Origin: a virus
Lineage: Duplodnaviria > Heunggongvirae > Uroviricota > Caudoviricetes
DNA: 5,037 nucleotides
Strand: one strand, 5' to 3'
IMG/VR virus record: IMGVR_UViG_2548877009_000019
The translations under genes and the position numbers were made by a program. A model generated the notes under the pieces. That model made no database searches, was not told where the DNA came from, and saw only the letters and a list, made by a program, of their open reading frames with translations. Positions 1 to 4,116 of this stretch are shown here, in pieces. The first letter of the stretch is position 1; the number at the start of each line of letters is the position of its first letter.

Positions 1-1230
1 ATGAGCAGAGCACTTAACAAACTGAGCGATACACAGCTGAGGAAAATCAACGGCACACCCGCCCAAAAAACAGCCTTTCTTAATGACGGTGGAAACCTGA
101 GCGTCAGGCATTCAACCAGTGGCCTTTTAACCTGGTATTTCACTTACAGGGCCGGAACGGGAAGGGGGGCACCACCGGAACGCATTAAGCTGGGAAATTA
201 TCCTGATCTGAGCCTGAAATCAGCCAGGGAAAAAGCCGCCCAGTGTCGCGCATGGCTGGCAGAGGGGAAAAATCCACGTCATGAAATGAATTACACCGTA
301 CAGGAAGCGTTAAAGCCGGTAACGGTTGGCGATGCGCTCACCTACTGGCTTGAGTCGTACGCAAAGGAAAACCGTGTGGATTATGACCCACTGAAAAAGC
401 GGCTAAATAATCACGTAATACAGCACATTGGCCCTATGCCGCTGGATAAATGCGAGCTACGGCACTGGCTGGCCTGTTTTGATCGGGTGGCAAAGAAAGT
501 CCCTGTTTCCGCCGGGTTCCTGCTACAGACATGCAAGCAGGCGCTTAAGTTTTGCAGGAAGCGGCGCTATGCAATCAGCAACGTTCTTGATGATATGAGT
601 GTGGCGGACGTTGGGAAAAAACCGGATATAAGTGAGCGTGTCTTAAGTAACAAAGAACTTGGCGAATTATTGCAGGCACTGGACAAAAAAATATTTTCCC
701 CTTACTACGTCGCACTAATCCGCCTCCTGATTGTTTTCGGATGCCGGACAGTAGAACTGAGGTTATCGGAGATCGGCGAGTGGGATTTTACCGAAATGCT
801 CTGGACCGTTCCGAAGGAGCACAGCAAAACGAAGGTAGCCATATTCCGGCCCATACCGGAAGCGATACTGCCGTTCGTCACGCAGCTGGTGGAGCAGAAC
901 AGGCACACGGGCTTATTGCTGGGGGAAGTGAAACAGGAAACCAGCGTATCGCAGTACGGCAGATTGGTGCACAGGAGGCTTAAACACCCTCACTGGTCAC
1001 TGCATGACATCCGGCGCACCTTTACAACCATGCTGAACGATTTAGGCGTTGATCCTCACGTCGTGGAGCAGCTTACAGGCCACCAGATGCCAGGAATGCA
1101 ACGCGTGTACAACCATTCCCGCTATATTGATGCGAAACGCAATGCGCTTGATATGTGGGTGGAGCGGTTGGAGATACTGGCGGGAACACATGAAAACGTA
1201 ACCACGCTACCAGTAACCAGAATAAAATAA
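1..1230 (+). CDS. int: Tyrosine-type site-specific integrase, P4-like phage integrase family
   Basis: 409-aa ORF starting at the first base of the window. C-terminal region carries the tyrosine-recombinase signature (LHDIRRTF, then HQMPGMQRVYNHSRY with a candidate catalytic Tyr). Size and N-terminal arm-binding-like region fit P4-type integrases. Internal ORFs on other frames (705-908 minus, 741-983 plus) are overlapping artefacts. Confidence 0.9.
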   Translation: MSRALNKLSDTQLRKINGTPAQKTAFLNDGGNLSVRHSTSGLLTWYFTYRAGTGRGAPPERIKLGNYPDLSLKSAREKAAQCRAWLAEGKNPRHEMNYTVQEALKPVTVGDALTYWLESYAKENRVDYDPLKKRLNNHVIQHIGPMPLDKCELRHWLACFDRVAKKVPVSAGFLLQTCKQALKFCRKRRYAISNVLDDMSVADVGKKPDISERVLSNKELGELLQALDKKIFSPYYVALIRLLIVFGCRTVELRLSEIGEWDFTEMLWTVPKEHSKTKVAIFRPIPEAILPFVTQLVEQNRHTGLLLGEVKQETSVSQYGRLVHRRLKHPHWSLHDIRRTFTTMLNDLGVDPHVVEQLTGHQMPGMQRVYNHSRYIDAKRNALDMWVERLEILAGTHENVTTLPVTRIK

Positions 1231-1263: not shown

Positions 1264-1278
1264 GATAAGTGCACAGAT

Positions 1279-1313
1279 ACAACGTGAAACAATGTGCAAC
1301 AACGTGACACAAT
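1279..1313 (+). repeat. Two 15-bp direct repeats ACAACGTGA(A/C)ACAAT, 20 bp start to start; candidate recombinase or AlpA binding sites
   Basis: Copies at 1279-1293 and 1299-1313 differ at one position. The overlapping motif TGACACAATCA (1305-1315) recurs at 1535-1545 in the alpA upstream region. Confidence 0.5.
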
Positions 1314-1410
1314 CACGAACAAGAGGCCAAAAAGAATACAGATTTGTAAGTTACTGATTTTTAATGCTCAGCTGGTTTTTTATACATTAGTGAATTACGC
1401 GTTAAAGCGT

Positions 1411-1450
1411 GCGAAAAAAGGCATAAAACAAGATTTTATGCCTTTGTATT
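1411..1450. terminator. Bidirectional intrinsic-terminator-like hairpin between int and alpA
   Basis: Perfect 9-bp stem GGCATAAAA / TTTTATGCC (1420-1428 and 1434-1442) with 5-nt loop. Followed by TTTGTATT on the plus strand and by TTTTTTCGC on the minus strand (complement of 1411-1419). Stem is AT-rich, so strength is uncertain. Confidence 0.45.
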
Positions 1451-1514
1451 AACATGAATTTAAATGATTTTATCCTGATTGTTCCTCTTTCTGTAAACCA
1501 TGCGACACCAACAT

Positions 1515-1793: not shown

Positions 1794-1934
1794 AAAGACT
1801 GGCGGCACACAGTCGCCACACATCCACTAATACAGAGATATAACTATGAAGATTGAATATGCGCCCGAACGTGGGCGGGGATTCGTTCGCCCTGGTGAAA
1901 CTGAAAAACAACAAAATTGGGGTTTTTCAGGCAT

Positions 1935-1962
1935 AAAAAAAGCGGCCCCGATATGGAGCCGC
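1935..1962 (-). terminator. Minus-strand intrinsic terminator downstream of the 2037-2240 minus-strand sORF
   Basis: Hairpin GCGGCCCC / GGAGCCGC (1942-1949 and 1955-1962; 8-bp stem with one mismatch, 5-nt loop GATAT). On the minus strand it is followed by seven U (complement of A-run 1935-1941). On the plus strand only a weak CTTTCT follows. Confidence 0.5.
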
Positions 1963-2036
1963 CTTTCTGAACAATTAACCTGCTGCGCCTTATGTGTATG
2001 TGATCCCAAACATAAGCACGGGAATGATAGCCGCTA

Positions 2037-2240
2037 TCAGGCTGGTGGGCAATTACCTTGCTTGTTGGGGCCGTATTGTGCTGCCATTTTCATCCGTTCA
2101 GAACGTGAATATTTTTTTAGAAACTCATCAAGGACAAAAGCGCATGGAGCGAATCTTTCTGATTCATGCTCGAGCGCCATATTTTCGTGCTCTCTGTTCG
2201 TTTTTTGCGATGGTGTATTGGTTGATTCTTTATTGGTCAT
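2037..2240 (-). CDS. Hypothetical small protein (67 aa, starts MTN); paralogous in position and 5' sequence to the 2698-2925 ORF
   Basis: Minus-strand ORF whose start is preceded by the conserved 45-bp leader repeat. Shares ATGACCAA and CACCAATACA with the 2698-2925 ORF at the DNA level. Has a downstream minus-strand terminator. The Shine-Dalgarno is weak (AGG about 9 nt upstream), so translation is uncertain. Confidence 0.3.
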   Translation of the reverse strand: MTNKESTNTPSQKTNREHENMALEHESERFAPCAFVLDEFLKKYSRSERMKMAAQYGPNKQGNCPPA

Positions 2241-2248
2241 TGTGTGTA

Positions 2249-2293
2249 CCTGTAAAGCAATGCGCCGGAGTTCCTCACGCCACGGCGCTGATG
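2249..2293. repeat. 45-bp repeat, copy A (CCTGTAAAGCAATGCGCCGGAGTTCCTCACGCCACGGCGCTGATG), forming the leader of the 2037-2240 sORF
   Basis: Matches copy B at 2934-2979 with 2 mismatches over 45 bp. On the minus strand it contains an inverted repeat GCGCCG-N15-CGGCGC. Flanking homology extends about 50 bp to the right (ATTCTTTGG...). Confidence 0.8.
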
Positions 2294-2297
2294 TTTT

Positions 2298-2402
2298 TTA
2301 TTCTTTGGGTTCAATACCGCGTTGCTGTAATTCTTTTCGGATTATTCGTTTTATCCAAGCTGCTAAAGAGTCATCACCGTCTTGTTGTTGTGCTTTTTCC
2401 AT
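2298..2402 (-). pseudogene. Possible truncated/diverged paralog (34 codons) of the 2983-3162 small basic protein
   Basis: Hand translation of the minus strand gives MEKAQQQDGDDSLAAWIKRIIRKELQQRGIEPKE. Its 3' end and the following DNA are homologous to the 3' end of the 2983-3162 gene (...CCCAAAGAATAA versus ...ACCAAAGAATCAGAATAA). The N-terminal two-thirds is missing. Confidence 0.25.
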
Positions 2403-2470
2403 CTTTTCCCGTAAGTCAGGATCTAAACGGAACTGGAAAGGAGGATTACCACGCCTTTCATTTTTGTGTG

Positions 2471-2498
2471 TTGACATGTCAATTACACCCCATATAAT
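2471..2498 (+). promoter_or_regulatory. Near-consensus sigma70 promoter (TTGACA, 16-bp spacer, TATAAT), plus strand
   Basis: TTGACA at 2471-2476 and TATAAT at 2493-2498, read directly. A perfect 12-bp palindrome GTGTATATACAC lies just downstream at 2507-2518 (candidate operator). Predicted start site near 2505. Confidence 0.6.
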
Positions 2499-2530
2499 GT
2501 GTTTATGTGTATATACACATTACACACAAC

Positions 2531-2577
2531 TAGCACAAAAAACAACGCCCCGCAGTGATGGGAACACATACGGGGCG
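2531..2577 (-). terminator. Minus-strand intrinsic terminator for the minus-strand sORF operon; same hairpin as module copy 1
   Basis: Stem CGCCCCG / CGGGGCG (2546-2552 and 2571-2577) with 18-nt loop. On the minus strand it is followed by UUGUUUUUUGUG (complement of 2531-2545). Confidence 0.5.
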
Positions 2578-2611
2578 TCTAACCAAACCATTAATTGAGG
2601 TAACGATTATG
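2545..2611 (+). repeat. Leader module copy 1: GC-stem hairpin (18-nt loop), TCTAACCAA, Shine-Dalgarno GAGGT, ATG (2609)
   Basis: Aligns with copy 2 (3291-3356) and, in architecture, with copy 3 (3658-3725). The ORF that starts here (MAIKEHSLLFIHTQT...) matches the P2/P3 N-termini only to HTQT and then diverges, so it looks like a degenerate copy. Confidence 0.6.
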
Positions 2612-2655
2612 GCTATAAAAGAGCATAGCTTACTCTTTATACACACACAAACGCC

Positions 2656-2695
2656 CCGGAAACGGAATAATCCGTTTCATAGTTCGGTTTTGTGT
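2656..2695 (+). terminator. Weak plus-strand terminator-like hairpin ending the short transcript from the 2471-2498 promoter
   Basis: Inner stem GAAACGGA / TCCGTTTC (2659-2666 and 2671-2678, loop ATAA), outer CCG/CGG closure, then UUUUGUGU (2688-2695). The U-run is separated from the main stem by an internal loop. Confidence 0.3.
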
Positions 2696-2697
2696 AC

Positions 2698-2925
2698 TCA
2701 TCCTGGCGGGCGATTCTTACGGGACTTTAGCCGCCGTGGGCAGCTTGCTAAAAATGCCTCCAACGCGAATAGTCCAGGTTTCATTTCTATCGGTATTAGT
2801 TGGATATTCAGAGGATTAGCCAGTTCGGCTTCAAGGCGAGCACAGGTTTCTAACTGCCTTTGCCGAATGATTTCATCTTCTTGCGTCTGCGTGTCTTGTA
2901 TTGGTGATAGTGTGTTGTTGGTCAT
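2698..2925 (-). CDS. Hypothetical small protein (75 aa, starts MTN)
   Basis: Minus-strand ORF immediately downstream of the 2983-3162 gene, separated from it by the 45-bp repeat copy B. Followed on the minus strand by the 2531-2577 terminator. Paralogous start to the 2037-2240 ORF. Weak Shine-Dalgarno. Confidence 0.35.
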   Translation of the reverse strand: MTNNTLSPIQDTQTQEDEIIRQRQLETCARLEAELANPLNIQLIPIEMKPGLFALEAFLASCPRRLKSRKNRPPG

Positions 2926-2933
2926 GGTACTGC

Positions 2934-2979
2934 CCTGTAAAGCAATGCGCCGTAGTACCTCACGCCACGGCGCTGATGG
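2934..2979. repeat. 45-bp repeat, copy B, in the 57-bp spacer between the 2983-3162 and 2698-2925 minus-strand genes
   Basis: Matches copy A (2249-2293) with 2 mismatches. Forms GCGCCG-N15-CGGCGC on the minus strand. Confidence 0.8.
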
Positions 2980-2982
2980 TGA

Positions 2983-3162
2983 TTATTCTGATTCTTTGGT
3001 CTTGCGGCGCTGGCGGCGTTTGATTTCGCCGCGCATGGCTGCGTTTATAAACTGCCCCGTGCTTTCACCTTCTTCTTTCACGTTCTCCATGCCTTCAATA
3101 ATTTCATGGGCAATACGTGCAGTTACAGATTGTGATTTTGCATTCTTTGGACCCGTTGCCAT
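2983..3162 (-). CDS. Small basic protein (59 aa, MATGPKNAKSQSVTARIAHEIIEGMENVKEEGESTGQFINAAMRGEIKRRQRRKTKESE); candidate regulator
   Basis: Start placed at the internal ATG (plus 3160-3162) because it has a strong Shine-Dalgarno GAGGGG with 6-nt spacer; the longer track ORF to 3201 has none. Divergent from the plus-strand operon across an operator-like region. Lys/Arg-rich C-terminal tail. Regulatory role is inference. Confidence 0.55.
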   Translation of the reverse strand: MATGPKNAKSQSVTARIAHEIIEGMENVKEEGESTGQFINAAMRGEIKRRQRRKTKESE

Positions 3163-3182
3163 GTTTAACCCCTCATGTTTTT

Positions 3183-3264
3183 GGTGTAAGACAATATACA
3201 CGAAAAAAAAATATTTTGAAGGGTTGACGTGTAAGACACCGTTATTTTACATTGTGTCTTACAC
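3183..3264. promoter_or_regulatory. Divergent promoter/operator region with GTGT-N3-ACAC palindromic motifs
   Basis: GTGTAAGACA (3184-3193), GTGTAAGACAC (3229-3239) and its exact inverted copy GTGTCTTACAC (3254-3264). A -35-like TTGACG at 3224-3229 overlaps the second motif; the -10 is poor (TTACAT/TACATT). Confidence 0.5.
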
Positions 3265-3290
3265 CTTGTTAATGCAAGGTACAGAAAAGA

Positions 3291-3356
3291 CGAAACCCCG
3301 CAGTGCTGGAACACATACGGGCTTCTAACCAACAACGTAAACTAGGAGCCGTTATG
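3291..3356 (+). repeat. Leader module copy 2: hairpin AACCCCG / CGGGCTT (17-nt loop), CTAACCAA, Shine-Dalgarno AGGAG, ATG (3354)
   Basis: About 90% identical to copy 1 over roughly 40 bp. Outer stem positions differ from copy 1 in a way that keeps pairing (A-U pairs replacing G-C pairs) with one internal mismatch. Confidence 0.7.
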
Positions 3357-3537
3357 GTTGCTGTAAATCATATACCACACCTTGTACACACACAAACTGC
3401 CTTTGTGTGGCGTTTTCTGGCACTGAATATCGGAGAAAAAAACCAGTTGATCGCCAGTGTCGAAAATAGCTATGATTCCCGCGCACCTCATAAAACGGGT
3501 GCCGGGATTGGCGTCCTGGGCAAAACTGAAGCGCATA
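3354..3537 (+). other. P3-paralogous short ORF (MVAVNHIPHLVHTQTAFVWRF...) with no in-frame stop before the 3538-3560 terminator; leader peptide or decayed paralog
   Basis: Good Shine-Dalgarno (AGGAG). N-terminal roughly 30 codons are paralogous to the 3723-3911 ORF with several synonymous differences. The frame runs without a stop through the terminator to 3911, so the 202-aa track ORF is unlikely to be one real protein. Confidence 0.3.
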
Positions 3538-3560
3538 ACACGCGCCCCGCGTGTTTTTTT
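3538..3560 (+). terminator. Strong Rho-independent terminator (ACACGCG-CCC-CGCGTGT followed by a T-run)
   Basis: Perfect 7-bp GC-rich stem (3538-3544 and 3548-3554), 3-nt loop, T-tract through 3560. Plus-strand specific. Lies inside the 3303-3911 track ORF and upstream of the small-ORF operon. Confidence 0.75.
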
Positions 3561-3657
3561 GTGCCGCATAGTCACACCTTATCAATGGTGGGCTGTACGG
3601 GGGCGGAGCAATCCGCGCCGGTTTCTTCAGTGTCCGGTTACGCCAACCCTGTACAGT

Positions 3658-3725
3658 CCGCCACCAGCGAAATTGGCGTTTCCGGTGGCGGTTATCTTAA
3701 CCACACTGAGGAGGCTGCCAACATG
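3658..3725 (+). repeat. Leader module copy 3: hairpin CCGCCACC / GGTGGCGG (18-nt loop), TCTTAACCAC, Shine-Dalgarno GAGGAGG, ATG (3723)
   Basis: Perfect 8-bp stem at 3658-3665 and 3684-3691. Same architecture and spacing as copies 1 and 2 but with a completely different stem sequence. Confidence 0.6.
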
Positions 3726-3911
3726 GCTACTATCCCTACCCTTGTACATTCTCAAACCGCCTTTCTCTGGCGCTTTATCATCTTTGGCGCGTCAGAACAT
3801 CAAATCATCCACGTAACCGCCTGGACGGAACGCGAAGCGCGTAGCCGTTGCCCGTCAGGTTGTGTTGCTGTATTTGCCGCCCGTATTCGTCAGGAGGTGC
3901 GCCATGATTAA
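3723..3911 (+). CDS. Hypothetical small protein (62 aa, MATIPTLVHSQTAFLWRF...); first gene of the small-ORF operon
   Basis: Strong Shine-Dalgarno GAGGAGG (3708-3714) with 8-nt spacer. Stop overlaps the next start (ATGATTAA). Paralogous N-terminus to the 3354 ORF with synonymous third-position differences. Confidence 0.6.
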   Translation: MATIPTLVHSQTAFLWRFIIFGASEHQIIHVTAWTEREARSRCPSGCVAVFAARIRQEVRHD

Positions 3912-4116
3912 TCTGTCACTTACTGACCTTAACCGCATTCAGTTTCGTGAGAAATTCACAGGGCAGCTACTGGTCAATGTGGATAAAGGTCGCGTGGTGT
4001 GTAATTACCACTTACCAGATGAAGCAATTGTCGCCACAAGGGAATCATTACAGGAAATCACAAAACGTGCCGGAATGATTAACACGAATATTCAGGGGAT
4101 GCTTTATGCACAATAA
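3904..4116 (+). CDS. Hypothetical small protein (70 aa, MINLSLTDLNRIQFREKF...)
   Basis: ATG at 3904 preceded by GGAGG (3893-3897, 6-nt spacer). Translationally coupled to the genes on both sides. The track's upstream extension to 3862 has no ribosome-binding site. Confidence 0.65.
   Translation: MINLSLTDLNRIQFREKFTGQLLVNVDKGRVVCNYHLPDEAIVATRESLQEITKRAGMINTNIQGMLYAQ

What the first reader, a model, noticed from the sequence alone, without database searches (positions are those of the whole stretch)
2471..2695. Near-consensus sigma70 promoter driving a short transcript that would be antisense to the minus-strand genes if it reads through
TTGACA-16-TATAAT is among the best promoter matches in the window, yet no convincing protein-coding gene follows it. 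The ORF at 2609 is a degenerate copy and the frame has no stop for over 700 nt. The predicted transcript contains hairpin module 1 and ends at a weak terminator near 2695. Read-through would run antisense across the 2698-2925 and 2983-3162 minus-strand genes. This fits a small regulatory RNA or a transcriptional-interference arrangement.
Basis: partly seen in the sequence, partly recalled or inferred. Interest (0 to 1): 0.6.

Follow-up and report, generated by a model that had tools for sequence, protein, structure and literature searches.

The report
Orphaned early promoter of satellite switch
The perfect promoter is real, but it is the rightward early promoter of one of two stacked repressor-operator modules of an E. 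coli phage satellite; the hairpin after it is a terminator on the opposite strand, probably the 3' end of an undescribed small antisense RNA.

Summary
TTGACA-16-TATAAT at 2471-2498 is the only perfect sigma-70 match in the window (0 of 200 shuffles). The ORF at 2609 is a truncated icd-like start, and its frame stays open to 3328.

The interpretation as a short plus-strand sRNA is not supported. The window is the regulatory region of a capsid-forming PICI-like island of E. coli. It holds two tandem modules of about 700 bp. Each module has a leftward ribbon-helix-helix repressor operon facing a rightward promoter that carries operator repeats.

In islands with one module, the homologous promoter drives a complete icd-like gene and the replication operon. 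Here module stacking has cut it off from that gene.

The hairpin at 2545-2578 folds on the minus strand: 122 G.U pairs against 6, covariation in two independent locus sets, and a U-tract on the minus strand. A minus-strand -10 motif sits at a fixed distance from this structure. Together they predict an antisense RNA of about 78 nt (2615 to 2538) covering the icd-like ribosome-binding site. Rfam has no match.

No plus-strand terminator lies near 2695. Read-through into module 2 is plausible, because a plus-strand frame kept free of stops across the leftward genes is a family-wide property. Nothing has been tested experimentally.

The parts
2471..2498 (+). Rightward early promoter of module 1 (P_R1). 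The -35 TTGACA is at 2471-2476 and the -10 TATAAT at 2493-2498. An overlapping TAATGT at 2495-2500 has an 18-nt spacer. The predicted start is near 2505. The -35 overlaps the first codons of the leftward repressor gene.
   Evidence: Searches show a unique perfect match. Searches show TTGACA in 39 of 42 distinct homologues, TAATGT in 37 of 42 and TATAAT in only 4 of 42.
2482..2525 (.). Operator-like repeats: ATTACAC at 2482-2488 and 2519-2525, an inverted TAATGTG at 2495-2501, and a perfect 16-bp palindrome ATGTGTATATACACAT at 2505-2520. The palindrome covers both predicted transcription starts.
   Evidence: One search lists the repeats. Searches show the half-sites are conserved in homologues.
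2298..2477 (-). 59-aa ribbon-helix-helix (Arc-like) protein, the presumed repressor of module 1 (RHH1).
   Evidence: phrog_228 Arc-like repressor, E 1.5e-6; weak YlcI_YnfO_N match; two-helix model whose best fold matches are all RHH proteins, with non-significant E-values; 117 homologues in Enterobacterales, Pasteurellaceae and Orbaceae.
2037..2240 (-). Second leftward gene of module 1, 67 aa, function unknown.
   Evidence: annotated as WP_000182306.1; phrog_21027.
2517..2545 (-). Predicted leftward promoter for RHH1 (P_L1). The -35 TTGTTT is at 2545-2540 and the -10 TAATGT at 2522-2517, with a start near 2510. It faces P_R1.
   Evidence: TTGnnn-17-TAATGT sits at the same place in nearly all homologues. 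This is a prediction only.
2533..2619 (-). Predicted cis-antisense RNA, about 78 nt, running from about 2615 to about 2538. It has a 5' helix GCCA/UGGU, a stem-loop at 2589-2605 with the anti-Shine-Dalgarno sequence in its loop, and an intrinsic terminator with stem at about 2544-2579 followed by the U-tract UGUUUUUUG. It is complementary to the SD and the ATG 2609 of the icd-like ORF.
   Evidence: 93-96% of cells are paired against 34-55% in slid controls. There are 46 and 93 compensatory cells. G.U pairs number 122 on the minus reading and 6 on the plus. The minus strand folds better in 36 of 36 distinct hairpins. The covariance model hit scores 93 bits.
2622..2650 (-). Predicted promoter of the antisense RNA. 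The -10 TATGCT is at 2627-2622 and the -35 TTGTGT at 2650-2645.
   Evidence: TAnnnT lies at ATG+13..18 in 36 of 41 distinct sequences. In the other 5 it moves with the RNA structure rather than with the start codon. The -35 is weak and variable.
2609..3328 (+). Truncated icd-like start (homology up to about 2655) fused to a stop-free frame. The frame runs antisense through both module 2 leftward genes and ends 26 nt before the next icd-like ATG at 3354.
   Evidence: One search finds no family match for its product.
2656..2675 (.). Palindromic hairpin GAAACGGA-ATAA-TCCGTTTC in the 3' flank of the module 2 leftward operon, just right of the recombination joint. It is not a canonical terminator on either strand.
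   Evidence: The same joint occurs in L007-L010, L016-L018, L020, L153 and L164.
2698..3162 (-). Module 2 leftward operon: a YlcI/YnfO-family RHH gene at 2983-3162 and a 75-aa gene at 2698-2925.
   Evidence: YlcI_YnfO_N, E 5.5e-18. Searches give the annotation.
3184..3272 (.). Module 2 switch. It has three copies of the operator GTGTAAGACA(C) at 3184-3193, 3229-3239 and inverted at 3254-3264. P_R2 is TTGACG-18-TACATT at 3224-3253. The facing leftward promoter is TTAACA-17-TAAAAT at 3272-3244.
   Evidence: One search shows the operator sequence changing with the repressor family.
3281..3364 (-). Second copy of the antisense RNA and terminator motif, in the 5' UTR of the module 2 icd-like ORF.
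   Evidence: 54 bits, E 5e-9; repeat D10.
3470..3911 (+). P1 immI-like part of module 2: an isrK / c4-a1b1-like segment with terminator at 3470-3559, C4 antisense RNA at 3581-3668, and an icd-like gene at 3723-3911.
   Evidence: C4 at 77.6 bits and isrK at 66 bits, both above the gathering score; phage_ICD_like.

Best explanation
The 2471 promoter is the rightward early promoter (P_R type) of a compact immunity module of a phage satellite, a capsid-forming PICI-like island beside roxA in E. coli.

Each module has these parts:
- a leftward operon that starts with a small ribbon-helix-helix repressor;
- a leftward promoter and a rightward promoter that face each other, with operator repeats over both start sites;
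- a rightward 5' UTR leading to an icd-like gene and, beyond it, the replication operon.

Inside that 5' UTR the opposite strand encodes a structured RNA of about 78 nt. It has its own -10 element, an anti-Shine-Dalgarno loop and an intrinsic terminator. By inference, the RNA blocks translation of the icd-like leader ORF and so makes the rightward transcript prone to Rho-dependent termination. The c4 RNA of phage P1 does this at icd-ant.

The window holds two such modules of different operator specificity, stacked in tandem. Module 1 has lost all but about 15 codons of its icd-like gene at the joint near 2655. Its promoter now points into the leftward operon of module 2.

The truncated ORF continues in a frame that is kept free of stops up to 26 nt before the module 2 icd-like start. 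When RHH1 repression is lifted, P_R1 transcripts are therefore likely to be translated across module 2. They would collide with and be antisense to the RHH2 operon, and would feed into the same icd/replication operon.

Shown:
- homology and conservation of the promoter;
- the strand, structure and covariation of the RNA element;
- the conserved -10;
- the operator repeats;
- the stacking of modules;
- stop avoidance in the plus frame.

Inferred:
- repression by RHH1;
- existence and action of the antisense RNA;
- read-through and its effect.
For: Context:
- int, alpA, icd-like, DUF4222, RepA helicase, SSB, PerC, then capsid, protease, portal and terminase genes lie beside roxA.
- The same island is present in O157:H7.

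Module duplication:
- One search aligns the two modules, and searches list the repeats.

Relatives with one module:
- The same promoter and hairpin lie in front of a full Icd-like gene and the replication genes.

Promoter:
- It is unique in the window.
- It is conserved across 42 distinct sequences.
- In YlcI-type modules the equivalent TTGAC(G) is intergenic and flanked by operators.

Repressor:
- Arc-like PHROG and YlcI/YnfO family matches.
- RHH-like model and fold matches.
- Operator sequences change together with beta-strand residues across families.

Minus-strand RNA:
- Searches give the structure and strand asymmetry.
- The covariance model finds one copy per module, always on the repressor strand: 87 of 87 hits in loci not used to build it.
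- Covariation in that second set: 96.2% of cells paired, 93 compensatory cells, 0 of 500 shuffles reach it.
- A fixed TAnnnT sits upstream.

Read-through:
- No + strand terminator before 3389.
- Stop-free relay frames at 1831-2596, 2534-3326 and 3273-3909.
- The median stop-free plus frame is 329 codons in 146 distinct loci, against fewer than 60 in the other frames.
- 93% of RHH genes are stop-free in that antisense frame, against 31% expected from synonymous resampling. All 8 families below 70% identity are stop-free.

Precedent:
- C4 RNA and Icd control ant expression in P1 (PMC8201110).
Against: - There are no transcript data of any kind. All three transcription starts are predictions.
- The -35 of the antisense promoter is weak and variable. 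The leftward promoter scores only moderately.
- The fold matches for RHH1 have E-values above 1. RHH1 and RHH2 show no detectable pairwise similarity.
- The sequences compared are related by descent, so the covariation and stop-avoidance statistics overstate independence.
- Module 1 proteins are identical in many E. coli strains. That fits recent spread as well as selection, so module 1 could be a silent relic.
- Bound RHH2 or the facing promoter could block read-through.
Confidence: 0.72

Rival explanations
1. Relic reading. Module 1 is a leftover of recombination between islands of different immunity type. P_R1 is kept shut by RHH1 and its transcript has no role. The module persists only because RHH1, and perhaps the antisense RNA, gives immunity against incoming related satellites, or because the arrangement is young.
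For: - The icd-like gene is truncated at a joint shared by many arrays.
- Arrays of one, two and three modules coexist.
- Module 1 proteins are identical across strains whose module 2 differs by about 9%.
Against: - Here the promoter is stronger than in most relatives: TATAAT occurs in only 4 of 42 distinct sequences.
- The truncated ORF keeps an SD, an ATG and a 720-nt open frame that ends just before the next icd-like start.
- Stop avoidance in this frame is family-wide.
Confidence: 0.2
2. First reader's reading. P_R1 makes a discrete plus-strand regulatory RNA of 150-200 nt that contains the hairpin and stops near 2695.
For: - The promoter is strong.
- The plus-strand RNA 2505-2700 folds better than shuffles, z = -4.2.
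- No recognisable complete gene follows.
Against: - The hairpin is selected on the other strand: 122 G.U pairs against 6, and 93.4% against 78.5% of cells paired. The minus strand has the lower energy in 36 of 36 hairpins.
- The minus-strand RNA folds better, z = -6.1.
- No + terminator is found.
- The segment is homologous to the 5' UTR and start of protein-coding icd-like genes.
- Rfam has no match on either strand at E up to 1.
Confidence: 0.04
3. The minus-strand hairpin is only a terminator, ending the module 2 leftward operon or stray antisense transcription before it enters the RHH1 promoter. No dedicated small RNA exists.
For: - In the tandem arrangement it lies 120 nt downstream of the stop of the 75-aa gene, and no better terminator lies between them.
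- The antisense -35 is weak.
Against: - The element is present in single-module islands where nothing is encoded upstream on that strand.
- Two further helices upstream of the terminator are conserved, and the inner stem-loop shows compensatory changes.
- A TAnnnT motif stays at a fixed distance from the structure even where the start codon has moved.
Confidence: 0.15

Closest known systems
Phage P1/P7 immI operon: c4 antisense RNA, icd, ant. Rfam RF01695 C4 and RF03163 c4-a1b1.
   Same: - An icd-type leader gene heads an operon, and a small RNA occludes its ribosome-binding site. In P1, Ant expression depends on C4 RNA and Icd (PMC8201110). From memory, P1 does this through Rho-dependent polarity (Biere et al. 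1992).
- Module 2 of this window carries a true C4 RNA and its target segment.
   Different: - In 2471-2695 there is no C4 or target match.
- The predicted RNA is encoded on the opposite strand of its target (cis-antisense). C4 is processed from the same transcript and acts through short loops.
Phage P22 immI: the Arc and Mnt ribbon-helix-helix repressors plus the sar antisense RNA (description from memory).
   Same: - Small RHH repressors act on overlapping opposed promoters.
- A short cis-antisense RNA, made from a promoter inside the target's leader, ends at an intrinsic terminator and covers the ribosome-binding site of the downstream gene.
   Different: - The target here is an icd-like gene heading a replication operon, not an antirepressor.
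- The repressor is transcribed away from the controlled operon rather than within it.
- There is no detectable sequence relationship.
Satellite phage P4 immunity: CI RNA, with leader ORFs whose translation prevents premature termination (from memory, Forti et al. 1999). Pfam PF10554 Phage_ASH.
   Same: - It is a satellite with a P4-type integrase and AlpA.
- It has an RNA-based block of leader translation coupled to transcription termination.
- The 'ash family' annotation hits module 2.
   Different: - The P4 CI RNA is processed from the sense transcript.
- No RHH repressor and no facing-promoter switch is known there.
- The Phage_ASH match lies over 3470-3750, not in the finding.
P2 and 186 developmental switches with face-to-face promoters (from memory).
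   Same: Two opposed promoters have start sites a few bases apart, so the transcripts overlap and RNA polymerases exclude each other. A repressor binds between them.
   Different: - The repressors there are helix-turn-helix proteins.
- The arrangement here is only predicted from consensus matches.
Master repressors of Gram-positive PICIs (Stl/Rpr).
   Same: A divergently transcribed repressor gene sits next to the rightward replication operon of a phage-inducible island (PMC6092414).
   Different: - That paper states that Gram-negative PICIs are transcribed only rightward and that a global repressor is unclear, with AlpA as the activator.
- The RHH modules seen here are small, leftward and often unannotated. 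They have not been tied to induction.

Membership tests
Sigma-70 promoter | -35 and -10 hexamers with a 16-18 nt spacer | tested here: met
   12 of 12 matches at 2471-2498. 0 of 200 shuffles contain an exact match.
Sigma-70 promoter | Conservation of the elements at the same place in homologous loci | tested here: met
   TTGACA in 39 of 42 distinct sequences and TAATGT or TATAAT in 41 of 42. The equivalent site in YlcI-type modules is intergenic.
Sigma-70 promoter | Mapped transcription start | not testable with these tools
   No transcript data are available.
Intrinsic (Rho-independent) terminator, minus strand | G+C-rich stem followed directly by a U-tract on the transcribed strand | tested here: met
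   Stem of about 14 pairs at 2544-2579, then UGUUUUUUG on the minus strand. The plus strand has an A-tract before the stem and no U-tract after it.
Intrinsic (Rho-independent) terminator, minus strand | Stem maintained by compensatory changes, with wobble pairs only on the functional strand | tested here: met
   6 to 7 stem pairs show double changes. G.U pairs number 122 on the minus reading and 6 on the plus.
Cis-encoded antisense sRNA (Sar / OOP type) | Own promoter on the strand opposite the target, inside its 5' region | tested here: inconclusive
   TAnnnT lies at a fixed distance from the RNA structure in all 41 distinct sequences, but the -35 is weak and no start site has been mapped.
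Cis-encoded antisense sRNA (Sar / OOP type) | Conserved secondary structure with a loop complementary to the target's ribosome-binding site | tested here: met
   The stem-loop at 2589-2605 carries CCUC in its loop. Its pairs covary.
Cis-encoded antisense sRNA (Sar / OOP type) | Detectable short transcript that represses the target | not testable with these tools
   Needs a Northern blot, dRNA-seq and reporter assays.
Rfam C4 / isrK / c4-a1b1 | Match to the covariance model within 2471-2695 | tested here: not met
   No hit on either strand at E up to 1. The hits lie at 3470-3668 only.
Ribbon-helix-helix repressor (Arc/MetJ/CopG superfamily) with operator | Beta-alpha-alpha fold | tested here: inconclusive
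   The model has helices at 20-33 and 38-52 after an extended N-terminal segment, mean pLDDT 79. All top Foldseek matches are RHH proteins, but with E from 2.5 to 10. phrog_228 Arc-like repressor matches at E 1.5e-6.
Ribbon-helix-helix repressor (Arc/MetJ/CopG superfamily) with operator | Repeated operator sites overlapping the controlled promoter, specific to the repressor variant | tested here: met
   Repeats and a palindrome lie at 2482-2525. O157:H7 has a different repressor and a different palindrome, GGTAATTACC twice. YlcI-type families each have their own GTG-xxxxx-CAC triplet.
Ribbon-helix-helix repressor (Arc/MetJ/CopG superfamily) with operator | DNA binding and repression | not testable with these tools
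   Needs EMSA, footprinting and reporter assays.
Icd-like cell division inhibitor gene (NF033153) | Match of the ORF at 2609 to the family profile | tested here: not met
   No Pfam match for the product of 2609-2800. Only about 15 N-terminal codons align with icd-like genes. The true copy is at 3723-3911.
Capsid-forming PICI (EcCIEDL933 type) | int, alpA, replication module and own capsid/portal/terminase genes at a fixed chromosomal site | tested here: met
   The flanks of the identical region in strain ST130 carry these genes. The same site and layout occur in O157:H7. The family is described in bioRxiv 10.1101/2022.09.08.507074.
Face-to-face promoter switch (P2/186 type) | Two convergent promoters with overlapping 5' ends | tested here: inconclusive
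   Predicted starts are near 2505 (+) and 2510 (-) in module 1, and near 3260 (+) and 3237 (-) in module 2. These are consensus matches only.

The most novel reading that the evidence does not exclude
The stacked modules and the stop-free plus-strand 'relay' frames (1831-2596, 2534-3326, 3273-3909) may form a translation-protected read-through path. Rightward transcription from the alpA promoter or from any derepressed P_R could cross the leftward repressor operons without Rho termination. It would silence them by collision and antisense pairing, and reach the icd/replication operon.

On this reading the antisense-overlapping ORFs are selected to stay open rather than to encode a protein. Each module's cis-antisense RNA gates the relay at its hand-off point. 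Stacking modules would then make an OR-gate that widens the range of inducing helpers.

This would also supply the missing repressor layer of Gram-negative PICIs.
Probability: 0.22. Interest if true: 0.8.

Novelty: new variant of a known kind. Interest (0 to 1): 0.55.

Why it matters
Gram-negative PICIs and capsid-forming PICIs are described as transcribed only rightward. AlpA is their only known regulator and no repressor has been identified (PMC6092414).

The region around this promoter shows a conserved, specificity-diversifying repressor-operator switch. It also shows an uncurated structured antisense RNA at the head of the replication operon, present in about a fifth of complete E. coli genomes in some form. 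If these elements act as predicted, they give direct handles on three questions:
- how these satellites stay silent;
- how they sense helpers;
- how they exclude one another.

The analysis also explains recurrent mis-annotation in this region: long 'Icd-like' or 'ash' pseudogenes are called on the plus strand, and the small leftward genes go unannotated.

For the finding itself, the practical message is that a perfect promoter followed by 'no gene' is a by-product of module stacking, not a free-standing sRNA gene.

Tried and rejected
- **Rfam, both strands, E up to 1.** Nothing in 2471-2695.
- **tRNA/tmRNA scan.** None.
- **INPHARED phages, distant blastn.** Only the isrK/C4/icd part of the query matches. 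The promoter, hairpin and RHH part has no phage match.
- **Pfam on the small proteins.** No significant hits apart from AlpA and Phage_ASH.
- **PDB sequence search with RHH1 and RHH2.** Nothing significant. The best is ArtA at E 0.98.
- **BLASTP between the two repressors and between the two second genes.** No similarity. The modules are therefore analogous in layout, with homology visible only in the non-coding parts and in the intergenic element.
- **Literature on EcCIEDL933, YlcI/YnfO, Icd-like antisense, and AlpA antitermination in PICIs.** No description of these elements.
- **TGTAAT as the family -10.** I rejected it in favour of the overlapping TAATGT, because TGTAAT lacks the A at position 2.
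- **A real long plus-strand protein (1846-2598, 2555-3328).** I rejected it as the primary reading. The frames switch at each module joint, the products are Cys-rich and cross terminators and promoters, and the opposite-strand RHH genes have family and fold support. The openness of those frames is nevertheless not explained by chance.
- **Minus-strand -35 elements.** They are weak, so the antisense promoter rests mainly on the -10.
Full report
**1. What the window is**

The window begins with a tyrosine integrase (1-1230) and an AlpA-family gene (1605-1793; Pfam PF05930). A region 99.9% identical to positions 1800-3950 lies in the chromosome of E. coli ST130, next to roxA/pepT. There it is followed by icd-like, DUF4222, RepA helicase, SSB, PerC, major capsid, prohead protease, portal, head-tail and small terminase genes. 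This is the layout of the capsid-forming PICIs, whose prototype is EcCIEDL933 (bioRxiv 10.1101/2022.09.08.507074). O157:H7 carries a related island at the same site. Parts of window 1800-3950 occur in 1895 of 5426 complete E. coli genomes.

**2. Check of the observation**

- TTGACA-16-TATAAT at 2471-2498 is confirmed. It is the only exact match in the window, and none occurs in 200 shuffles.
- ATG 2609 has a GAGG 8 nt upstream. Its first 15 or so codons align with the icd-like starts at 3354 and 3723.
- The frame is free of stops from 2534 to 3326.
- The hairpin exists.
- No plus-strand terminator is found between 2500 and 3380. The stem at 2656-2675 is not followed directly by a U-run.

**3. 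Two stacked modules**

Aligning 2030-2700 with 2690-3430 shows two modules with the same layout.

| Part | Module 1 | Module 2 |
|---|---|---|
| Second leftward gene | 2037-2240 | 2698-2925 |
| Conserved intergenic element (75 nt, 84% identical) | 2230-2304 | 2915-2989 |
| Small leftward repressor gene | 2298-2477 | 2983-3162 |
| Rightward promoter | 2471-2498 | 3224-3253 |
| Hairpin | 2545-2578 | about 3297-3325 |
| icd-like start | 2609 | 3354 |

Module 2 continues with an isrK/c4-a1b1-like segment, a C4 antisense RNA and an icd-like gene. The RNA hits are above the Rfam gathering scores.

Relatives with a single module have the same promoter and hairpin directly in front of a complete Icd-like gene, followed by primase or helicase genes (L003, L004, L005). 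Relatives with three modules also exist (L002).

In module 1 the homology of the icd-like ORF ends at about 2655. There the 3' flank of the module 2 leftward operon begins. The identical joint is found in several IMG/VR contigs, and also downstream of a different repressor type (L153, L164). The promoter therefore lacks a gene because modules were stacked by recombination.

**4. The promoter and its switch**

Eighty IMG/VR loci encoding homologues of the 59-aa protein gave 42 distinct promoter-region sequences.
- TTGACA is kept in 39 of them.
- TAATGT with an 18-nt spacer is kept in 37.
- The perfect TATAAT of the window occurs in only 4.

The -35 overlaps the first codons of the leftward gene, so coding constraint could contribute to its conservation. 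In the YlcI/YnfO-type modules, however, the equivalent TTGAC(G) is intergenic and still conserved.

On the minus strand, TTGnnn-17-TAATGT recurs at the same position in nearly all homologues. In the window it lies at 2545-2540 and 2522-2517. This predicts a leftward start near 2510, facing the rightward start near 2505. Module 2 shows the same geometry: TTGACG-18-TACATT faces TTAACA-17-TAAAAT.

Between and around the starts lie repeats. Module 1 has ATTACAC twice, TAATGTG, and a perfect 16-bp palindrome at 2505-2520. Module 2 has three copies of GTGTAAGACA(C).

The 59-aa proteins look like ribbon-helix-helix repressors.
- RHH1 matches the PHROG 'Arc-like repressor' family, E 1.5e-6.
- RHH2 matches NCBIfam YlcI_YnfO_N, E 5.5e-18.
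- An AlphaFold model of RHH1 has two confident helices after an extended N-terminal segment.
- All of its best PDB fold matches are RHH proteins (NikR, Arc, CopG, ParD), but with non-significant E-values.

Across families the operator sequence changes together with the residues of the presumed DNA-reading strand. O157:H7 has PPYQMRL with GGTAATTACC. The YlcI-type families each have their own GTG-xxxxx-CAC triplet. This is the pattern expected for repressor-operator pairs of different immunity specificity.

Binding and repression themselves are inferred.

**5. The hairpin belongs to the other strand**

In an alignment of 50 leader sequences, the stem has 92 C.A or A.C cells when read on the plus strand. 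These are G.U pairs on the minus strand. Only 1 cell is a G.U on the plus strand. The minus-strand RNA has the lower folding energy in all 36 distinct hairpins, with means of -22.3 and -17.0 kcal/mol. On the minus strand the stem is followed by a conserved U-tract.

RNAalifold on the minus strand adds an outer helix, GCCA/UGGU. Inside it I placed a small stem-loop by inspection. Its loop carries CCUC, the complement of the Shine-Dalgarno sequence. The pair counts support it.

For this three-helix structure:
- 93.4% of cells are standard pairs, against 34-49% when partners are slid;
- there are 46 compensatory cells;
- no shuffle of 500 reaches the observed values for cells paired, compensatory cells, pair types or covariation score;
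- read on the plus strand, only 78.5% pair.

A covariance model built from it finds one copy per module, always on the repressor strand. The window has 2533-2619 at 93 bits and 3281-3364 at 54 bits. It also finds 87 of 87 hits on that strand in 80 loci retrieved independently with the YlcI-type repressor. Their alignment shows 96.2% pairing and 93 compensatory cells in 11 pairs. That alignment is fitted to the model, which favours the structure.

The element is thus a structured minus-strand RNA ending in an intrinsic terminator.

**6. A promoter for that RNA**

Single-module islands have nothing encoded upstream on that strand, so the RNA needs its own promoter.

A TAnnnT motif on the minus strand lies at ATG+13 to +18 in 36 of 41 distinct sequences, despite different codons there: Q-H-T, K-S-T, K-C-T, N-H-I, K-F-T and N-D-T. 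In every case a wobble T supplies the A at position 2 of the -10. In the five sequences where the start codon is displaced, the motif keeps its distance from the RNA structure, not from the ATG.

In the window this motif is TATGCT at 2627-2622, with TTGTGT 17 nt upstream. The predicted start is at AGCCAU, about 2614-2616, which gives an RNA of about 78 nt. The -35 elements are weak, so I regard the RNA as well predicted but not shown.

Rfam 15 has no family matching it.

**7. How it most likely works**

By analogy with P1, the antisense RNA would pair with the icd-like translation initiation region. In P1, C4 RNA and translation of icd govern expression of the downstream ant gene (PMC8201110). 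From memory, this works through Rho-dependent polarity, and P4 uses a related principle with its CI RNA and leader ORFs. Here the antisense RNA and the target mRNA would present complementary loops. Pairing would stop translation and expose the rightward transcript to termination.

RHH1 would shut P_R1 at the DNA level.

In this window the P_R1 transcript has no icd-like gene of its own, and it meets no intrinsic terminator before 3389. Its ORF stays open to 3328, 26 nt before the next icd-like start.

**8. The open frame is not an accident**

On the plus strand three stop-free intervals overlap end to end: 1831-2596, 2534-3326 and 3273-3909. Each hand-off lies in an icd-like 5' UTR. The first frame ends in a TGA that overlaps the SD of ATG 2609.

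- In 146 distinct related loci, the longest stop-free plus frame across the repressor gene has a median of 329 codons. The other two frames are usually under 60.
- In O157:H7 the frame runs 314 codons, straight into icd.
- Within the repressor ORFs, 93% are stop-free in the antisense frame that shares wobble positions. Synonymous resampling predicts 31%.
- All 8 families below 70% identity are open.

These sequences share ancestry, so the figures are indicative only.

A plausible reason is that rightward transcripts must be translated while they cross the leftward operons to escape Rho. Such transcripts could come from the alpA promoter, which AlpA activates (PMC6092414), or from an upstream P_R. 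This is inference. It does make read-through from P_R1, and hence interference with the RHH2 operon, more credible than a short transcript.

**9. Comparison with what is known**

The ingredients are classical:
- RHH repressors on opposed promoters plus a short cis-antisense RNA, as in P22 immI;
- an icd leader gated by RNA, as in P1 immI;
- face-to-face promoters, as in P2 and 186.

The combination, its place in Gram-negative PICIs and the stacking of modules are not described in the papers I could read. Fillol-Salom et al. 2018 state that these islands are transcribed rightward only and that a global repressor is unclear. The cf-PICI paper does not mention repressor, promoter or icd.

I therefore rate it a new variant of known kinds of control, resting on comparative evidence only.

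**10. Verdict**

The promoter is real and conserved, but it is not the start of a free-standing sRNA gene. It is the orphaned early promoter of the int-proximal module in a two-module array. The hairpin is the terminator of a predicted antisense RNA on the other strand.

Noticed in passing
window 1831-3909, + strand; also L087 2328-3272 and most of L007-L172: Three overlapping stop-free plus-strand frames relay across both leftward operons, their promoters and terminators. In 146 related loci the median open frame is 329 codons. Repressor genes avoid antisense stops far more often than synonymous resampling predicts (93% against 31%).
   Followed up: partly
window 3470-3668: An isrK / c4-a1b1-like segment with a terminator (3470-3559) and a C4 antisense RNA (3581-3668) both score above Rfam gathering thresholds. 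GenBank annotates this stretch as an 'ash family protein' pseudogene, which is a translation of RNA genes (Pfam Phage_ASH matches the same stretch).
   Followed up: partly
window 3371-3416 and 3731-3776; L092 1856-2053: The icd-like N-terminal coding segment is duplicated 360 nt apart and flanks the isrK/C4 block. Some strains lack exactly this block and have one uninterrupted icd-like gene. This suggests gain or loss by recombination between the repeats.
   Followed up: partly
window 2230-2304 and 2915-2989; L087 about 2700-2775: A 75-nt element between the repressor gene and the second leftward gene is 84% identical between modules whose proteins show no similarity. It contains a GCGCCG...CGGCGC hairpin and the start of the second gene. 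Its function is unknown.
   Followed up: no
L093-L172, upstream of the repressor gene; window 3184-3264: YlcI/YnfO-type modules carry three operator copies of the form GTG-xxxxx-CAC. The centre differs between families (TAAGA, GGCCA, GCTGA, TCCGA, TATTT, GAATC, CTAAG) and varies together with the residues of the predicted beta-strand of the repressor.
   Followed up: partly
L002 4623-6173; L143, L153, L164: Arrays of two or three modules occur with different combinations of repressor types. The same truncated-icd joint sequence follows unrelated modules. Stacking is therefore recurrent rather than a single event.
   Followed up: partly
L001 9679-10183 (window 2698-2925); L087 2328-2944: Annotation is inconsistent between records. 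The 75-aa leftward gene is unannotated in strain ST130 but annotated in others. In O157:H7 the two leftward genes are not annotated at all, and the antisense plus frame is called an Icd-like pseudogene.
   Followed up: no
window 1275-1315 and 1525-1545: Three copies of a 21-nt direct repeat (consensus about CAACGTGACACAATCA) lie between int and alpA. They are possible binding sites for AlpA, integrase or another regulator of the alpA promoter.
   Followed up: no
window 1381-1462 and 1935-1965: Terminator-like hairpins: one lies after int (a weak, sub-threshold Rfam BSnc120 match) and one lies on the minus strand after the module 1 leftward operon (GGCGGCTCC...GGGGCCGC followed by TTTTTT).
   Followed up: no
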